Shown in pieces: positions 16,291-22,780 of a stretch of 64,000 nt of DNA. Positions within the stretch are counted from its first letter, which is position 1. Every line of letters begins with the position of its first letter. The stretch is from the NCBI GenBank assembly GCA_964016885.1, contig OZ024744.1, positions 44,640,001 through 44,704,000 of the forward strand, read 5' to 3'. The notes beneath the pieces were generated by a model, which ran no database searches, was not told where the DNA came from, and worked only from the letters and a program-made list of their open reading frames with translations. The translations under genes and the position numbers were made by a program. This DNA comes from Eledone cirrhosa (Eukaryota).

Positions 16291-17160
16291 TTGCATTTAT
16301 CTTGCTTTATGTTCATACCAGTTATCACCAAGTCACACCAGTGACCTCAAGAGACAACAAGGTCCGCCATGTTCAAGAAAGAACATACATACTCACACAT
16401 GCATCTTTAGTGTTTAGACTTGTGATGTACTTATATTGACAGAATCTTCCTTAGTATATGGGCAGTTCCCATTAGTACTATCTTTTGTATTTCTCCTATA
16501 CGCGGGTTTCCTGGGATTTGCGATAAGTAATCATTAGACCCCTTAGGTATCATTCCCAGAGCGCCCACAACCACTGGTATTGTTTTAGTTCTCAATTTCC
16601 ACATTTTTCCAATTTCTATCTTCAGGTCCTTATACTTGCTCAATTTTTCAAATGTTTTTATAGATACATTCTTGTCTATTGGAACGGACATATCAATTAG
16701 CAGGCATACCCTCTTTTTAAAGTCCTTCAATATTATATCAGGTCTATTTGCATCTATTTTTCGGTCTGTTTGGATGCTAAAGTTCCACAAGATTGAGATG
16801 TGATCTTTTTCAAGTATGGGAGGTGGTTGATGCTCCCACCAATTCTTTTGATGGGGCAGGTCAAAATGCTTACACATTATCCAATGTATGTATTGTGCAG
16901 CTCTGTCATGCCTGTTTAGGTATTCGGTTGGAGCTATAGGACTGCACATTGAAATTATATGGTCAATGGTCTCTGGTTGTTTTTTACATACACGGCATAA
17001 TGGGCTGCACCCATTTTTTATTATGTTGGCTTGGTAATTTTTTGTTGGCAGACCCTGATCTTGTGCTGATATAATCAGTCCTTCAGTCTCCGATTTCAGT
17101 CCAGAGGAGGCCAACCACTGATAGGTTAAAGTTTTGTCAACATCAGGATTGTTAGCTCGT
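16290..17160 (-). mobile_element. R4/Dong-clade retrotransposon 3' fragment (CCHC + RLE)
   Basis: ORF 16431-17114: CRVCKKQPETIDHIISMC, RPDIIL, LIDMSVP, KLSKY, IPVVVGALG. Confidence 0.88.
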
Positions 17161-18599
17161 TCAACACCTAACCTAGCTAGCCATATCGCATTCAGTAACC
17201 ATCATAAACTAATACAGTATAACTCCCACACCGCGGTACCCCCCCCCCCCCCGCTCAAATACACCACACCTCTACACCAATACTTGCTCTAGTAGCATAC
17301 ATCCCCCATCTAATCCTTCTAGCACGGACCAACCGCATAGTTTAAACAACCCTACACTCACTAACCGCAGAAGTAACTGCAACTGCCGTTACCCTAATGT
17401 ATGCCCACTAAATGGACAATGCCTTACACCCAATATAGTTTATAGGTGCACAGTTAAAACAGCATCGCATACCAGCTCCTATATTGGCTCGACCTCTAAC
17501 CCTTTTAAGGTATGCTATAACGCTCACTCATTTTCCTTCCGAGACCCTAGCAATAGATGTTCGATATCTCTAGCTAGGCTCATTAAAAACCTTAAATTAA
17601 CCAACATTGAACACTCACTAACATGGGATATCTTGGTTAGAGCCCAACCGTTCAATGGACGAAGAAACTCTTGTGATCTCTGTCTTGCCGAAGCCTATTA
17701 CATAACTCTATCACGACCTCTACCGATTAATGATAGAAGGGAGGTAACTATTAGCTGTCAACATCGAAGGGCTAATTCCTTCGCCAACAGAATATTTGAC
17801 CCAACATATTCATCTATACCCACTTTTTCTTATAGCTAACATGTTAAATAGTTATACCTAACTTAGATAATTATAAGTTACCTCCCTTACATTGTCTTTC
17901 ATTTAAACTCATTAGCACTTCTTAAATATTAACCACCTACAATATCTAATTTCTCGAGGAGTTACTTCTCCTGAAACCACCCTCTAATTAGTAAGATAAA
18001 TATGTCCTTTGGCGGCCATCTTTTTACCCATAGGCAGATCTTACATAATGCAGCCTCGACAGAAGAATATTGCTCGCTTATGGCAGACAATAGATAGACC
18101 CAGGACACCATAGTGAAATAGCAATATATGGAACATCACATTCATGTAACCATCTTTCTTTACCTTAATTTATATTCCTTTTGAAGTACCGATGAAATGC
18201 TCCAATTTTACCTAAGTTAATTATCTTCAACTGAACCAGATCAATAATGATCTATAATCATTTAATGCAGAAACATTATATGGAGTAGCGAAACAATTGT
18301 AAACGGACATTATTAGTATTATTATTATTATTCTTTACATTCCTTACAGTAAACTACAACTTGGTTGACAATCTTTAAATAATGTCTTCCTTGTGAAATT
18401 TGTGGTCTTGTTTTGCTTAACTAATGAATATTTCCAGCTCTGTGCACCTAACCTCGGCATGAACCCAGCCACCTAGCTGCCTTCCACTGCATATTGCACA
18501 TTGTGCCCATGCCTTTACGCTTTGGCTTCTAGCTAATTCACCAATCTCTCTTCTCCTCTCCTATCTCCATCTCTCTCGTTAAGATTGGTTACTTTTGAG

Positions 18600-18840: not shown

Positions 18841-20690
18841 GGAAGACATTGTGGATAGTGCAGTTTTAAATCAACATATGAAAAGTAGTTTTAGATTGAT
18901 GTGTGATATTGGGGGAAATAAAATTTGAGGGTGGGTGGGGAGGTTGGAAAGGATGAAAAAGAGGAGGAGATGAGAGTAAAAAGTGGAGGGGGAGGAGTAT
19001 AATGAGGAAGGATGAGATAGGAGGAGAGATGGGTGATAGAGAGAGAGAGATAGCTTTTATAACTAAGAAAAATATATTGTTTTACATAGAGAGGTTGAAA
19101 AACCGTTGGAAAATAATGTATAAATTAAAAGAATTTGAAAATTAACGAAGAGAAAAATAATGTAAAGTTAGGGTTTGTATATTGAAGGGTTTAATAATAT
19201 GTGCGATGAAAAGAAATTGTTAATATGTATTAAGAATAATATTTAAGGGTTTAATAATATGTGCGATGAAAAGAAAATGTTAATATGTATTAAGAATAAT
19301 ATTTAAGGATTTAATAATATGTGCGATGGAAAGAAAATGTTGATATGTATTATTAAAAAAACAAAAGTAATGTAAGTAAGGATATATTGTGAGATATAAG
19401 TTAGATGAAAGTGAGAAAAAAATAATGAATAGAGGATGAATAATCTAACGTAAAAAAAAAAATGTTTATGTTTACGAAGGATTTTTTCAAGGTGATATAA
19501 AGTAAGAATATATTGTATTGTGTAATAATTGTTTCTATGTTAGGCACAGTGAGAAAAGGTACAGATTAGGGGTTAGAAATTAAAAGAAAAAGAAAAGGAA
19601 AAGGAAGAAAGAGAAGTGATAAATAGGAGTGATATAGAATGAGTAACAAGTACTATATAATGTATAATAAATAACTTTGAAATAAGGTAGAAAGATGGGT
19701 ATATTTTTAAAGAAGTATATATATATATATATATGTGCCTTTGAGAAAAGGATTCTGAATTGATAAAGTTTAGAATTCAGAATCCTTTTCTCAAAGGCAC
19801 ATATATAAATATATATACTTCTTTAAAAATATACCCATCTTTCTACCTTATTTCAAAGTTATTTATTATACATTATATAATACTTGTTACTCATTCTATA
19901 TCACTCCTATTTATCACTTCCCTTTCTTCCTTTTCCTTTTCTTTTCTTTTTCTTTTAATTTCTAACCCCTAATCTGTACCTTTTCTCACTGTGCCTAACA
20001 TAGAAACAATTATTACACAATACAATATATTCTTACTTTATATCACCTTGAAAAAATCCTTCGTAAACATAAACATTTTTTTTTTTACGTTAGATTATTC
20101 ATCCTCTATTCATTATTTTTTTCTCACTTTCATCTAACTTATATCTCACAATATATCCTTACTTACATTACTTTTGTTTTTTTAATAATACGAATCAACA
20201 TTTTCTTTCCATCGCACATATTATTAAATCCTTAAATATTATTCTTAATACATATTAACATTTTCTTTTCATCGCACATATTATTAAACCCTTCAATATA
20301 CAAACCTTAACTTTACATTATTTTTCTCTTCGTTAATTTTCAAATTCTTTTAATTTATACATTATTTTCCAACGATTTTTCAACCTCTCTATGTAAAACA
20401 ATATATTTTTCTCAGTTATCCTAAACGGACGGTAGTCCGTTTAGTAATATTGTTGTGGTCGTGTTTTCGTTGGCAATCGTCTGTTTACTACAGTACAGCG
20501 CGGCTCTACTTTATTTAACTGAGATAAAACTTATATGAGCATGAACAGTAGATCATTACGCTTCTTTTGGCTTAAAAATTTAGAAATTTGGTCCAGCGGA
20601 AAAAAGTTTATAATCAAAGTTTGCTGATAAATCTTGTGTTCAAGTGAGTGAGTAGTAAGCGTGACGCTAGGGGAGGTAATCCAGAAATGA

Positions 20691-20876
20691 CGACGTTTGG
20701 AAAAGTTTAATTACTGCATGAAAGAAATGATTCAAAAATTGAACTTGCCCAATCTTCACAACATTGAAAATTGGTCAAAATTTGACAAATCTGACTTCAA
20801 ACCAGATATGATTCATTTGAACAATGTTGGAAATCTTAAACTGACACAAATTTTTGCCAATGTTTTTGCCACCTGA
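20691..20876 (+). pseudogene. C-terminal fragment of an SGNH/GDSL hydrolase-like domain
   Basis: Manual translation RRLEKFNYCMKEMIQKLNLPNLHNIENWSKFDKSDFKPDMIHLNNVGNLKLTQIFANVFAT*, with a DxxH block-V-like motif and AATAAA downstream. Confidence 0.6.
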
Positions 20877-21056
20877 TCCTTGTTCTATGGCTGACTGACT
20901 AATTTTGTGACTTAATAAAATGTCATCATACTAGTAATGCACAATGGTCATTTTTAAATTTAAATTTTATTAAATAGTTGTTGCTTGCATTGCCTTAAAA
21001 TAGTAACAAGAATGTACACATACTTTTTAAAAATACATCATTATCAGTCAAATCAG

Positions 21057-21416
21057 TCAAATGTCACTAAAAGCCAGGTGGTCGATAACAACTTCTATAA
21101 GATTAGTTACATGCTCACACATTGGATCACCTCTCATCAATGGCATTGGGTGTCTGAAATAATCGTGGAGATAACTGATGAAGTCACAAATGAAGTGATG
21201 GTCTTCCAGTGTGAACAACTCCCTATATCCATTGATATATGTGATGGCTTCCGATTCATAGGTGCATTGTATGAGGAATTCCATGCATCCGATTTTCAGT
21301 GATTCAATGGGCATTTTATCACAGATGATAAGGTATTTGACCACGTTTTGCTTTGTAAGTAAATTGGAGAGAATCACTGCAGTCAAAGTCATTTCTTTGC
21401 ATGGGTTTTTGTCCAT
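21057..21416 (-). CDS. 119-aa ORF with BACK-domain-like segment
   Basis: 'LTKQNVVKYLIICDKMPIESLKIGCMEFL...ITYINGYREL' resembles the BTB-BACK consensus. A pyrimidine tract + AG lies just before the ATG. Confidence 0.45.
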   Translation of the reverse strand: MDKNPCKEMTLTAVILSNLLTKQNVVKYLIICDKMPIESLKIGCMEFLIQCTYESEAITYINGYRELFTLEDHHFICDFISYLHDYFRHPMPLMRGDPMCEHVTNLIEVVIDHLAFSDI

Positions 21417-21690
21417 TCTAAAAAGTTAAAATGATAAAGTATTACTACTATATAACTTACATCTATTGTTGTAACACCATTGAAATGCACAAGTTTCACC
21501 AATTCACTATTATGCACAAATCATCTCAAATGCATTCATGATTTACTAGCTTTGTCATTAAGCCAGTTGCCTCAACTAGATTGTAATTATACTCAAAAGA
21601 ACTTTAAAATGTCAATCACTTGTCAGTAATTCACTATGATCATTTAATTATTAGATAGTTGTTGCTTGCATTGCCTTAAAAAATAGTAGA

Positions 21691-22780
21691 CCAGATAGAA
21701 AAATGCGTACAGCAAAAAAAAGTAATATTGTTGGAATATAAACCTTTAAAAATACAGGACAAGAAACTAAAATAAAACTTTAAAAGAATAGGACAAGAAA
21801 CTAAGATAAAACTTTAAAAGAATAGGACAAGAAACTAAGATAAAACTTTAAAGAATTGGACAAGAAATAAAAAAATTTACAATAATATTAGTGGCAAATA
21901 TTTTTTATTCGTTTCCTGTGCTATGCCCCAGTATCTTCTTGATTAGTGCATAATAATTGTCATGTCTCATTATGCGTTGCCCTGAGCGGTTGGTTCTGAT
22001 TAGGATTGGTTGGCTGAGCAGTTCTGCTCCGTCAGAATGACCATTGCAAGAAGAATTGGCCGATGCAGCTGCAGGTCTCCTCCAAGAATGTACTTCTGGT
22101 CCCGCAACACCAGACGAAGATGGAGAAGACGACCGGGACAAGATGTCGACTCTGACCACCGACTGCGGCACCTCCCTCAACCACCGGTCCTCCCTCCCTC
22201 TGTCCCGTCATCCCTCCAGTCCTCCTGCTCCCCCTTCCTGTACCAGAAAGCTGTGGCACGCATTCATCTGGACTGTCGGACTTGAACTCAAGGACAAGAT
22301 GCAAGGAGAAGATGGACGGGTTGGTCAAGATCAAGGATGAGCGGGACGACAAGACCGTCCGCTGTTGCTCAAGATCTGTGCTCATGGGCCCATGGGTCCA
22401 TTCACATTATGCATGACACATGAGGCGTGTCGCCGAATAATGAAATAGGGGTATGGTTATGGCCCAATTGGTGTTCAAACCAGGATCAAATGATCCCCCG
22501 GTCTGACGACGACCTCTGAATGTGGTACCCAGAGCCTATGAATGTGGAATTCGATTTTTTACCAATAAAAATTTTGCCACTAATATTATTGTAAAATTTT
22601 TTATTTCTTGTCCAATTCTTTAAAGTTTTATCTTAGTTTCTTTTCCTATTCTTTTAAAGTTTTATCTTAGATTCTTGTCCTATTCTTTTAAAGTTTTATT
22701 TTAGTTTCTTGTCCTGTATTTTTAAAGGTTTATATTCCAACAATATTACTTTTTTTTGCTGTACGCATTTTTCTATCTGG
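21691..22780. repeat. ~215-bp inverted repeats (21691-21909 / 22563-22780) containing 34-bp tandem units, around a GC-rich core
   Basis: CCAGATAGAAAAATGCGTACAGC... versus ...GCTGTACGCATTTTTCTATCTGG; unit AATAGGACAAGAAACTAAGATAAAACTTTAAAAG. Confidence 0.9.

What the first reader, a model, noticed from the sequence alone, without database searches (positions are those of the whole stretch)
20419..22780. Helitron-like insertion with boundaries fixed by the palindrome, carrying SGNH- and BACK-like cargo
Seen: the uninterrupted opposite arm gives the empty site, so the insert is TC...CTGG between A and T with no TSD. It has a terminal hairpin CTAAACGGAC-GGTA-GTCCGTTTAG (20421-20444) and a 13-bp subterminal inverted repeat AGTAATATTGTTG (20443-20455 / 22738-22750). 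Cargo is a convergent SGNH C-terminus (+) and BACK-like ORF (-). Known: TC/CTRR and A|T insertion are Helitron hallmarks, while sub-TIRs are Helentron-like. The strong hairpin at the TC end is atypical, so this may be an undescribed rolling-circle variant.
Basis: partly seen in the sequence, partly recalled or inferred. Interest (0 to 1): 0.7.

Follow-up and report, generated by a model that had tools for sequence, protein, structure and literature searches.

The report
Rolling-circle transposon with fold-back tail
This is a short, gene-less copy of a rolling-circle jumping gene (Helitron2 type) whose tail is a pair of near-identical mirror-image arms, a layout also found in distant relatives from another host, where the arms look as if they are likely re-copied from each other at each jump, which would show how this untested group of transposons finishes its ends.

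Summary
The insertion is real: 2,362 bp, TC...CTGG, between A and T, no duplication; 63/64 copies have A before and 64/64 T after. It is a non-autonomous deletion derivative of a Helitron2-type (HLE2) family whose RepHel (DUF6570, HUH, PIF1, UCH; no endonuclease) lies between the same ends. A hairpin at the TC end, sub-terminal repeats, A|T target and SGNH cargo each have precedent (FoHeli, HLE2-reverse, proto-Helentron, texim); 'BACK-like' found no support. Three diverged families here have it, arms 98-99% identical within an element. A distant OTU-type family in another host has the same layout: arms 0.8% apart within copies versus 8.3% between, mirrored indels, outer arm stopping at different places, once 860 bp long. 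Best model: nicking starts at A^TC; the displaced strand folds back and likely re-copies its outer arm (about 50%); rival: terminator plus gene conversion. Not found in my literature searches. The scan earlier noted SGNH cargo in Helitrons of this genome, not this fold-back.

The parts
20419..22780 (+). Whole non-autonomous HLE2 element (family A), inserted between A20418 and T22781
20419..20420 (+). 5' TC; inferred nick/start site
   Evidence: A|TC in 20/20 copies and 44/51 interior-selected copies; same in families B, C and in G001
20421..20444 (+). 5' hairpin, 10-bp stem, 4-nt loop
   Evidence: fold z -4.5; compensatory double change in family B; same loop in G001 and in two metagenome loci
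20443..20455 (+). 5' asymmetric terminal inverted repeat (13 bp)
20419..20693 (+). 5' module shared (96-99%) with RepHel-bearing long copies; a deletion joint follows at 20693/20694, where a 3.6-kb subfamily has about 1.2-1.5 kb more (RepHel start and first SGNH exon)
20694..20876 (+). 3' half of the last exon of an SGNH-hydrolase-like gene (DxxH block), no start; remnant
20916..21005 (+). Older (76%) direct copy of the sequence that precedes the internal arm
21057..21425 (-). 122-aa open frame of unknown origin; 'BACK-like' not supported
21668..21689 (+). Motif just upstream of the internal arm, conserved in families A, B and C
   Evidence: 1765 genome matches to the junction pattern against 8 for the control
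21690..21905 (-). Internal arm: inverted copy of the 3' end including the end motif and the following T; holds the 13-bp repeat in 5' orientation (21721-21733), an opposed repeat-like motif (21880-21892) and 34-bp tandem units
21906..22566 (.). Spacer between the arms (about 660 bp, GC-richer, no Pfam or Rfam hit); inverted in 1 of 84 copies
22567..22780 (+). Terminal arm: repeat-like motif (22579-22591), 34-bp tandem units, 3' inverted repeat (22738-22750), CTGG end; no local 3' hairpin
   Evidence: (z -0.3)
19050..19070 (-). Empty site in the opposite arm of the host palindrome (break at 19059/19060); host sequence, not part of the element

Best explanation
The stretch is a young, high-copy, non-autonomous deletion derivative of a Helitron2-type (HLE2) rolling-circle transposon, and its 3' end is a fold-back of two 216-bp mirror arms that is likely rebuilt by self-primed copying during transposition. 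Shown: the ends, the A|T target without duplication, the RepHel-bearing parent with the same ends, the fold-back in three families of this genome and in a distant family of another host, and arms far more alike within an element than between families or copies. Inferred from Helraiser chemistry (PMC4778049): a RepHel supplied in trans nicks at A^TC at the hairpin end, stays bound to the 5' T and displaces the + strand 5' to 3'. Inferred from the copies: the displaced strand folds arm on arm; its 3' end primes copying of the internal arm, which renews the outer arm; in this genome the copy is cut exactly at CTRG^T, whose template the internal arm carries, whereas in the other host it stops at variable places; the end is then joined to a target T. 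Identity as an HLE2 derivative about 95%; start at the TC end about 75%; re-copying at transposition about 50%.
For: Parent: 15 of 20 long loci fetched around DUF6570 hits or left ends match the window element's ends (7 of the 20 were picked because of a known end or SGNH match); RepHel domains Helitron_like_N, DUF6570, REP, PIF1, UCH, HUH and YxxxYxxK motifs; tree puts families A-C together and apart from the genome's Helitron1-like proteins (quick tree). Fold-back: arms 98.2% (A), 98.4% (B), 99.1% (C) identical within an element, about 90-92% between A and B, only short motifs with C; family-specific end (CTGG or CTAG) mirrored in the internal arm; four variants of three A copies are in both arms, no column differs in majority base between arms, within-copy 1.55% versus 1.84% between, p about 1e-4 by permutation, copies not independent. 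One copy (L072) runs 83 nt past CTGG along the reverse complement of the internal flank. Other host (G001): A|TC, hairpin with the same loop, then a 15-bp repeat; 22 of 26 5' ends keep A|TC while the copies diverge from each other after 70-1500 bp; 14 fold-backs, arms 98.2-100% identical (7 at 100%), outer arm ending at different template positions; in 10 related copies 0.8% within versus 8.3% between, 77 mirrored non-majority bases versus 13 one-arm, indels mirrored; L347 arms 860 bp, 100%. A third group (L246, L252) has 304- and 211-bp arms 99-100% identical with an opposed motif pair inside.
Against: In family A the 34-bp unit is lost independently in the two arms (internal short with terminal full in 13 of the length classes listed, the reverse in 7, both short in 5; several breakpoints), and 0 of 54 copies have exactly identical arms: strict re-copying as the last step is not shown here, and the star-like family (0.8% from majority) cannot tell re-copying from inheritance of identical arms. 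One inverted spacer (L160, 1 of 84) shows that arms can recombine, which also homogenises. No head-to-tail end junction was found in the genome for A/B or C or among listed read joints. No intact family-A RepHel among 54 DUF6570 matches; family B has a stop or frameshifts. In G001, L289 and five of sixteen fetched regions show 5' ends without a fold-back; 78 or more of the 86 outside loci show no such repeat, most being too short downstream. G001 arms could be made more alike by assembly polishing (not testable here). The third group's ends were not fixed.
Confidence: 0.6

Rival explanations
1. Same HLE2 derivative, but the long stem only acts as the stop signal in place of the missing 3' hairpin (pausing the helicase so that CTRG^T is cut); the arms are kept alike by ordinary gene conversion and flipping between close inverted repeats, not by copying at each jump.
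For: No local 3' hairpin in A, B or C although Helraiser uses one as terminator (PMC4778049 passages); arm duplex far stronger than the 13-bp pair; inverted spacer in L160; independent unit loss in family A arms.
Against: 0 of 54 family A copies have identical arms and within-copy distance is about twice the distance to the majority, as if arms decay freely after insertion; conversion alone does not explain outer arms that run 83 nt (L072) or about 660 nt (L347) beyond the usual end along the internal template.
Confidence: 0.3
2. The fold-back is a frozen accident: one element once inserted into another in opposite orientation (the self-insertion route drawn for FoHeli), and the inner end was carried along without function.
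For: Self-insertion is proposed for composite FoHelis (PMC5148889 passage, section 16); families A and B often carry duplicated 5' ends.
Against: Arms stay 98-99% identical inside three families whose RepHels differ by up to 40% and in a 33-36% identical family of another host; the upstream junction motif is conserved.
Confidence: 0.06
3. The arm-spacer-arm unit is a separate fold-back (TIR) element that landed at the end of a Helitron.
For: It looks like a 1.09-kb element with long TIRs; L350 in G001 has both arms joined to host-like DNA.
Against: 20 of 20 right-end copies continue left of the internal arm into the element body; the arms carry the repeat that matches each family's own 5' end; no TSD.
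Confidence: 0.04

Closest known systems
HLE2-reverse / FoHeli3-5 of Fusarium oxysporum (PMC5148889 section 6 read; PMC11417382 section 24 read)
   Same: [quoted passage not shown]
   Different: FoHeli3-5 start TGCCT and end CTCCTGT, target preference not established; no long inverted copy of the 3' end is described in the parts read; fungal host; here UCH domain and animal host.
Proto-Helentron of Phytophthora infestans (PMC4067079 section 11; PMC11417382 section 24)
   Same: HLE2 protein without endonuclease, CTAG end, A|T insertion without TSD, short TIRs, 5' stem-loop.
   Different: Starts TT, not TC; the stem-loop lies 3.6 kb from the left repeat; reported only in Phytophthora; no fold-back described in the parts read.
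HINE / DINE-1 (non-autonomous Helentrons; PMC4067079 and PMC7492417 passages)
   Same: Read on the minus strand the element has the HINE plan: one module with subTIR plus partner repeat, tandem repeats, other module with subTIR then palindrome; no TSD.
   Different: HINEs insert at T|T and their parents carry an AP endonuclease; here A|T, no endonuclease, and the subTIR-plus-partner module is present twice in mirror image.
Helitron1 / Helraiser (PMC4778049 passages)
   Same: 5' TC, 3' CTRR, A|T target, no TSD, HUH Y2 RepHel.
   Different: Helitron1 has a hairpin 11 nt before CTRR and no inverted repeats; protein belongs to the other clade (DUF6570 present).
HLE2 subgroups c/d with UCH (PMC11417382 section 23)
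   Same: DUF6570 plus C-terminal UCH domain.
   Different: Their ends are not described in the parts read; placement in c or d was not tested (no reference sequences).
texim SGNH genes in fish Helitrons (PMC4021074 abstract and section 7)
   Same: Spliced SGNH-hydrolase gene carried by a Helitron.
   Different: Here only a remnant, downstream of RepHel; no sequence link to texim was found (no hit).

Membership tests
HLE2 (Helitron2/Helentron clade) | Parent encodes RepHel with HUH, two tyrosines and PIF1 helicase | tested here: met
HLE2 (Helitron2/Helentron clade) | DUF6570 marker domain | tested here: met
   E 4.5e-18 in family B, 9e-18 in family C; hits inside family A long copies
HLE2 (Helitron2/Helentron clade) | Short asymmetric terminal inverted repeats | tested here: met
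   13 bp in A and B, 10 bp in C
HLE2 (Helitron2/Helentron clade) | Groups apart from Helitron1 in a Rep tree | tested here: met
   quick tree, 100 support; outgroup are own-genome PF14214 hits taken as Helitron1-like by their RGL motif, no named references
HLE2 (Helitron2/Helentron clade) | Usual T|T target | tested here: not met
   A|T in 63/64 and 64/64; known exception: proto-Helentron
Helitron2 as defined by Bao and Jurka | Hairpins at both ends | tested here: not met
   5' hairpin strong, no 3' hairpin in A, B, C
Helentron (strict) | AP endonuclease fused to RepHel | tested here: not met
   no Exo_endo_phos hit; UCH instead
Helitron1 (HLE1) | 5' TC, 3' CTRR, A|T, no TSD | tested here: met
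Helitron1 (HLE1) | 3' subterminal hairpin, no inverted repeats, HLE1-type protein | tested here: not met
HLE2-reverse | Stem-loop 5' of the left repeat relative to the RepHel gene, none at 3' | tested here: met
   RepHel on the same strand as TC-hairpin in all long copies
HLE2-reverse | Same tree branch as FoHeli3-5 | not tested
   no FoHeli sequences were in hand
Proto-Helentron | 5' TT start | tested here: not met
   TC
Fold-back/MITE of a DDE transposon | Solo TIR-bounded units with TSD | tested here: not met
   20/20 right-end copies extend past the internal arm; no TSD
SGNH hydrolase | Blocks I-V | tested here: inconclusive
   blocks II, III, V seen in the 3.6-kb subfamily, block I not seen (block names recalled); Pfam below cut-off
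BACK domain | Profile or fold match | tested here: not met
   model too poor for a fold search
Rolling-circle transposon | Circle or head-to-tail intermediate | tested here: inconclusive
   no exact junction in the genome or in listed read joints of reduced-representation DNA runs

The most novel reading that the evidence does not exclude
A widespread HLE2 lineage, with a protease domain (UCH or OTU) at the end of RepHel, builds its 3' end by self-primed fold-back synthesis at every transposition: the outer arm is a fresh copy of the internal arm, cut at CTRG^T in some families and left ragged in others. This would be a hairpin-primed way of finishing (and perhaps making the second strand of) a Helitron, unlike the hairpin-terminator model, and arm divergence would date each insertion as LTR pairs do.
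Probability: 0.45. Interest if true: 0.82.

Novelty: new variant of a known kind. Interest (0 to 1): 0.62.

Why it matters
The Helitron mechanism tested in cells is that of a Helitron1; for HLE2 the roles of the two ends and of the short repeats are proposals (PMC3627910 suggests that the two short repeats pair). Here the fixed TC-hairpin end and ragged far end point to the start site, and the 216-bp arm would out-compete the 13-bp pairing, so the standing proposal becomes testable. Family C has several apparently intact 2230-aa copies over 99% alike, a ready candidate for the first HLE2 assay. About 1,800 such fold-backs lie in this genome; they can flip, delete, or form long hairpin RNA. Detectors that look for 11-18-bp TIRs with T|T, or for a 3' hairpin, would likely misclassify these elements.

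Tried and rejected
BACK identity: Pfam, Atlas, word search, PDB, phmmer on representatives, single-sequence model: nothing; no fold search on a pLDDT-40 model. SGNH relatives: word search and PDB gave no useful hit. Head-to-tail junctions: one unrelated match for A/B, none for C. Expression: no RNA holder listed, so untested. Rfam: no match. My first idea that the element should be read as an ordinary HINE on the minus strand with a T|T target was dropped (A|T; RepHel on the + strand). L080 looked like a read-through but has an ordinary flank. Inverted repeats L244/L246 at 15-16 kb, L220-L223, L249 and L290 were set aside as unrelated repeats or not end-linked. The careful tree did not finish; the quick tree is used. 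A check of the G001 fold-back against reads is left open. Literature: no paper describing a long 3' fold-back in Helitrons appeared in the listings of searches (open-access library only; Repbase entries and the 2015 Thomas and Pritham review could not be seen; of the HELIANO supplement only term hits were seen, figures not). Searches: listings only, apart from the papers named as read.
Full report
1. Observation. The window holds TC at 20419, a 10-bp-stem hairpin at 20421-20444, a 13-bp repeat at 20443-20455 with its inverse at 22738-22750, and CTGG at 22777-22780. The hairpin folds better than all 200 shuffles; the 3' end has no such hairpin. Two other copies of the host repeat in the window give the empty A|T site, and raw reads show the exact joint skipping 2362 bases.

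2. Copies. The left end has 684 and the right end 1153 candidates in the genome (lower bounds; the right query also hits the internal arm). All 20 left junctions shown were A|TCC; 19 right junctions could be read, all followed by T, 18 ending CTGG. To avoid picking by ends I fetched 60 copies by their SGNH interior: 44 of 51 left ends read ATC, 48 of 52 right ends CTGGT. Over 100 loci, 64 had both ends: A before in 63, T after in 64; long flank matches occur only where microsatellites are involved, and among the 30 other copies none exceeds 6 bp. Copies are about 0.8% from the majority, with a star-like tree: a recent burst. Of 107 loci, 79 have a complete right end; the rest stop in the terminal arm (8), internal arm (8, one being the inverted copy), spacer (4), body (7, five being the long variant seen in a short window) or at the locus edge.

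3. Parent. Copies that share only the first 284 bp continue into RepHel sequence. DUF6570, which HELIANO gives as the HLE2 marker (PMC11417382 section 23), has 54 matches in the genome. Of 20 long loci fetched, 15 match the window element's ends. Family A long copies (5-10 kb, 92-99% to the window) have broken RepHel frames. Family B (11.2 kb, 77% at the left end) has the same hairpin with a compensatory double change and ends CTAG (the two changes co-occur in the same read counts). Family C (12.9 kb, intact 2230-aa frame) starts A|TC plus a 19-bp-stem hairpin and ends CTAG|T. The proteins carry Helitron_like_N, DUF6570, REP, PIF1 and UCH, and no AP endonuclease; B and C are 60% identical over Rep. 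RepHel is on the TC strand. A quick tree groups A-C (99) away from the genome's Helitron1-like proteins (100).

4. Cargo. A 3.6-kb subfamily keeps 1.2-1.5 kb deleted in the window copy, with the RepHel start and an upstream SGNH exon before a short GT-AG intron. The SGNH call rests on motifs and a sub-threshold Pfam hit. The 122-aa minus frame has a pattern that resembles the BTB/BACK boundary by my recall, but no search supports it.

5. The fold-back. All three families have it; arms are 98.2, 98.4 and 99.1% identical inside an element but about 90% between A and B and only motif-level with C, and the family's own end motif is mirrored. The junction before the internal arm is conserved, 1765 matches against 8 control. 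Each arm holds the family's short repeat plus an opposed partner. All 20 right-end copies run on past the internal arm, so the unit does not travel alone. In 54 family A copies the within-copy arm distance is 1.55% against 1.84% between copies, with 22 mirrored and 157 one-arm variants; 34-bp units are lost independently and no copy has identical arms. One spacer of 84 is inverted. One copy reads 83 nt past the end along the internal template. Contigs of two other organisms cover both arm-spacer joints, so the structure is no artefact of this assembly.

6. Other hosts. Relatives with UCH occur in an insect, a nematode and metagenomes. Of 86 outside loci, most end too soon; L287, L288, L291, L246 and L252 have 170-300-bp arms at 99-100% with 540-760-bp spacers downstream of RepHel. 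L287-L291 (bin G001, OTU instead of UCH; eukaryote-like DNA) start A|TC, hairpin with the same four-base loop, then a 15-bp repeat. Of 30 repeat matches examined out of 76, 26 are 5' ends, 22 with A|TC, and they lose likeness to each other at many different distances. Sixteen further regions gave 11 more fold-backs; for 8 elements both the A|TC end and the fold-back were seen. In all 14, arms are 98.2-100% identical; the outer arm stops at different points of the same template, and each joint can be read as followed by T, unambiguously in three. In 10 related copies arms differ 0.8% within and 8.3% between copies, with mirrored insertions and deletions; one pair of arms is 860 bp and identical. 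L289 and five regions show 5' ends without a fold-back. In the third group the arms also hold an opposed motif pair, and two loci have the same kind of TC-hairpin, but ends were not fixed. Tree support joining G001 with the UCH clade is only 84.

7. Mechanism. For Helraiser the TC end is essential and nicked, the 3' hairpin is a terminator, and circles form (PMC4778049 passages). The same A|TC junction, fixed while the far end is ragged, marks the hairpin end as the likely start (inferred). With no 3' hairpin, the arm duplex (predicted -226 against -12 kcal/mol for the short repeats) is the dominant structure of the displaced strand, with the end motif and its T at the base of the stem. Mirrored private changes, variable outer ends and over-long arms are most simply explained by fold-back priming and copying (inferred, about 50%). 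A terminator role with conversion (30%) explains the inversion and family A's discordant units but not the over-long arms. No circle junction was found.

8. Known and new. Read: PMC5148889 (passages, section 6), PMC11417382 (passages, sections 23-24, supplement term hits), PMC4067079 (passages, section 11), PMC3627910, PMC13085455, PMC4778049, PMC7492417, PMC8788227, PMC13282606, PMC12273014, PMC12001565 (passages), PMC4021074 (abstract, section 7). The 5' hairpin, short asymmetric repeats, CTAG with A|T, UCH and SGNH cargo each have precedent; the exact set TC, CTRG, A|T in an animal HLE2 and the concerted 3' fold-back did not appear in what I read or in searches. Earlier scan notes mention SGNH genes in Helitrons of this genome and one-off fold-backs elsewhere (unchecked AI notes); sequence look-ups found nothing. 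Verdict: new variant of a known kind, interest 0.62.

Noticed in passing
G000 L126/L128/L130 (for example C14:27654741-27667681): Family C: 12.9-kb HLE2 with an uninterrupted 2230-aa RepHel-UCH frame, copies over 99% alike; five 2230-aa and two 2245-aa frames. Likely the most recently active autonomous member.
   Followed up: partly
L293-L300; L108, L112, L144: Family B copies often carry two to four stacked 5' ends; some family A copies also repeat the 5' module, as described for FoHeli.
   Followed up: partly
L197 (C1:74305500-74315000): A family A right end is followed after TA by the 5' end of a family C element.
   Followed up: no
L301-L302 (C1:52.92-52.94 Mb): Three tandem 5.49-kb units each holding a family C fold-back with a shortened spacer.
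   Followed up: partly
L117:5570-6184: Spacer of the family B fold-back holds a 205-aa frame with a Cys/His pattern like a PHD finger (recalled resemblance; no Pfam support); Cys-rich repeats follow the RepHel stop.
   Followed up: partly
G001 (L287-L291, L343-L358); P0001: Contigs in a bin labelled as a bacterium have 0-22% long-ORF cover and many transposon copies, so they are likely eukaryotic host DNA; a Helitron protein is likewise labelled bacterial.
   Followed up: partly
L350:10713-11687: A G001 fold-back with both arms joined to host-like DNA; unexplained.
   Followed up: no
L345, L346: Two G001 loci have back-to-back 5' ends about 1.2 kb apart with the same flanks.
   Followed up: no
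L151, L156, L157, L191, L195, L066, L077: Family A copies often break at the inner end of the internal arm (element positions 1456-1472), near the repeat-like motif.
   Followed up: partly
runs X5, X6: Two other organisms hold 52% and 39% of the sampled words, with both ends and the arms: the family is shared among related hosts or moved between them.
   Followed up: partly
window 16431-17201 (-) and 17213-17839 (+): End of a LINE-like frame (weak zf-RVT, E 0.0035) and a frame that looks like a Penelope GIY-YIG end (recalled; no Pfam hit).
   Followed up: partly
window 2.9-15.4 kb, 18.6-23.1 kb, 49.9-55.8 kb, 57.6-60.7 kb, 62.4-63.8 kb: Several other long inverted pairs of host repeats; 37-bp tandem array at 35.4-36.4 kb.
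   Followed up: no
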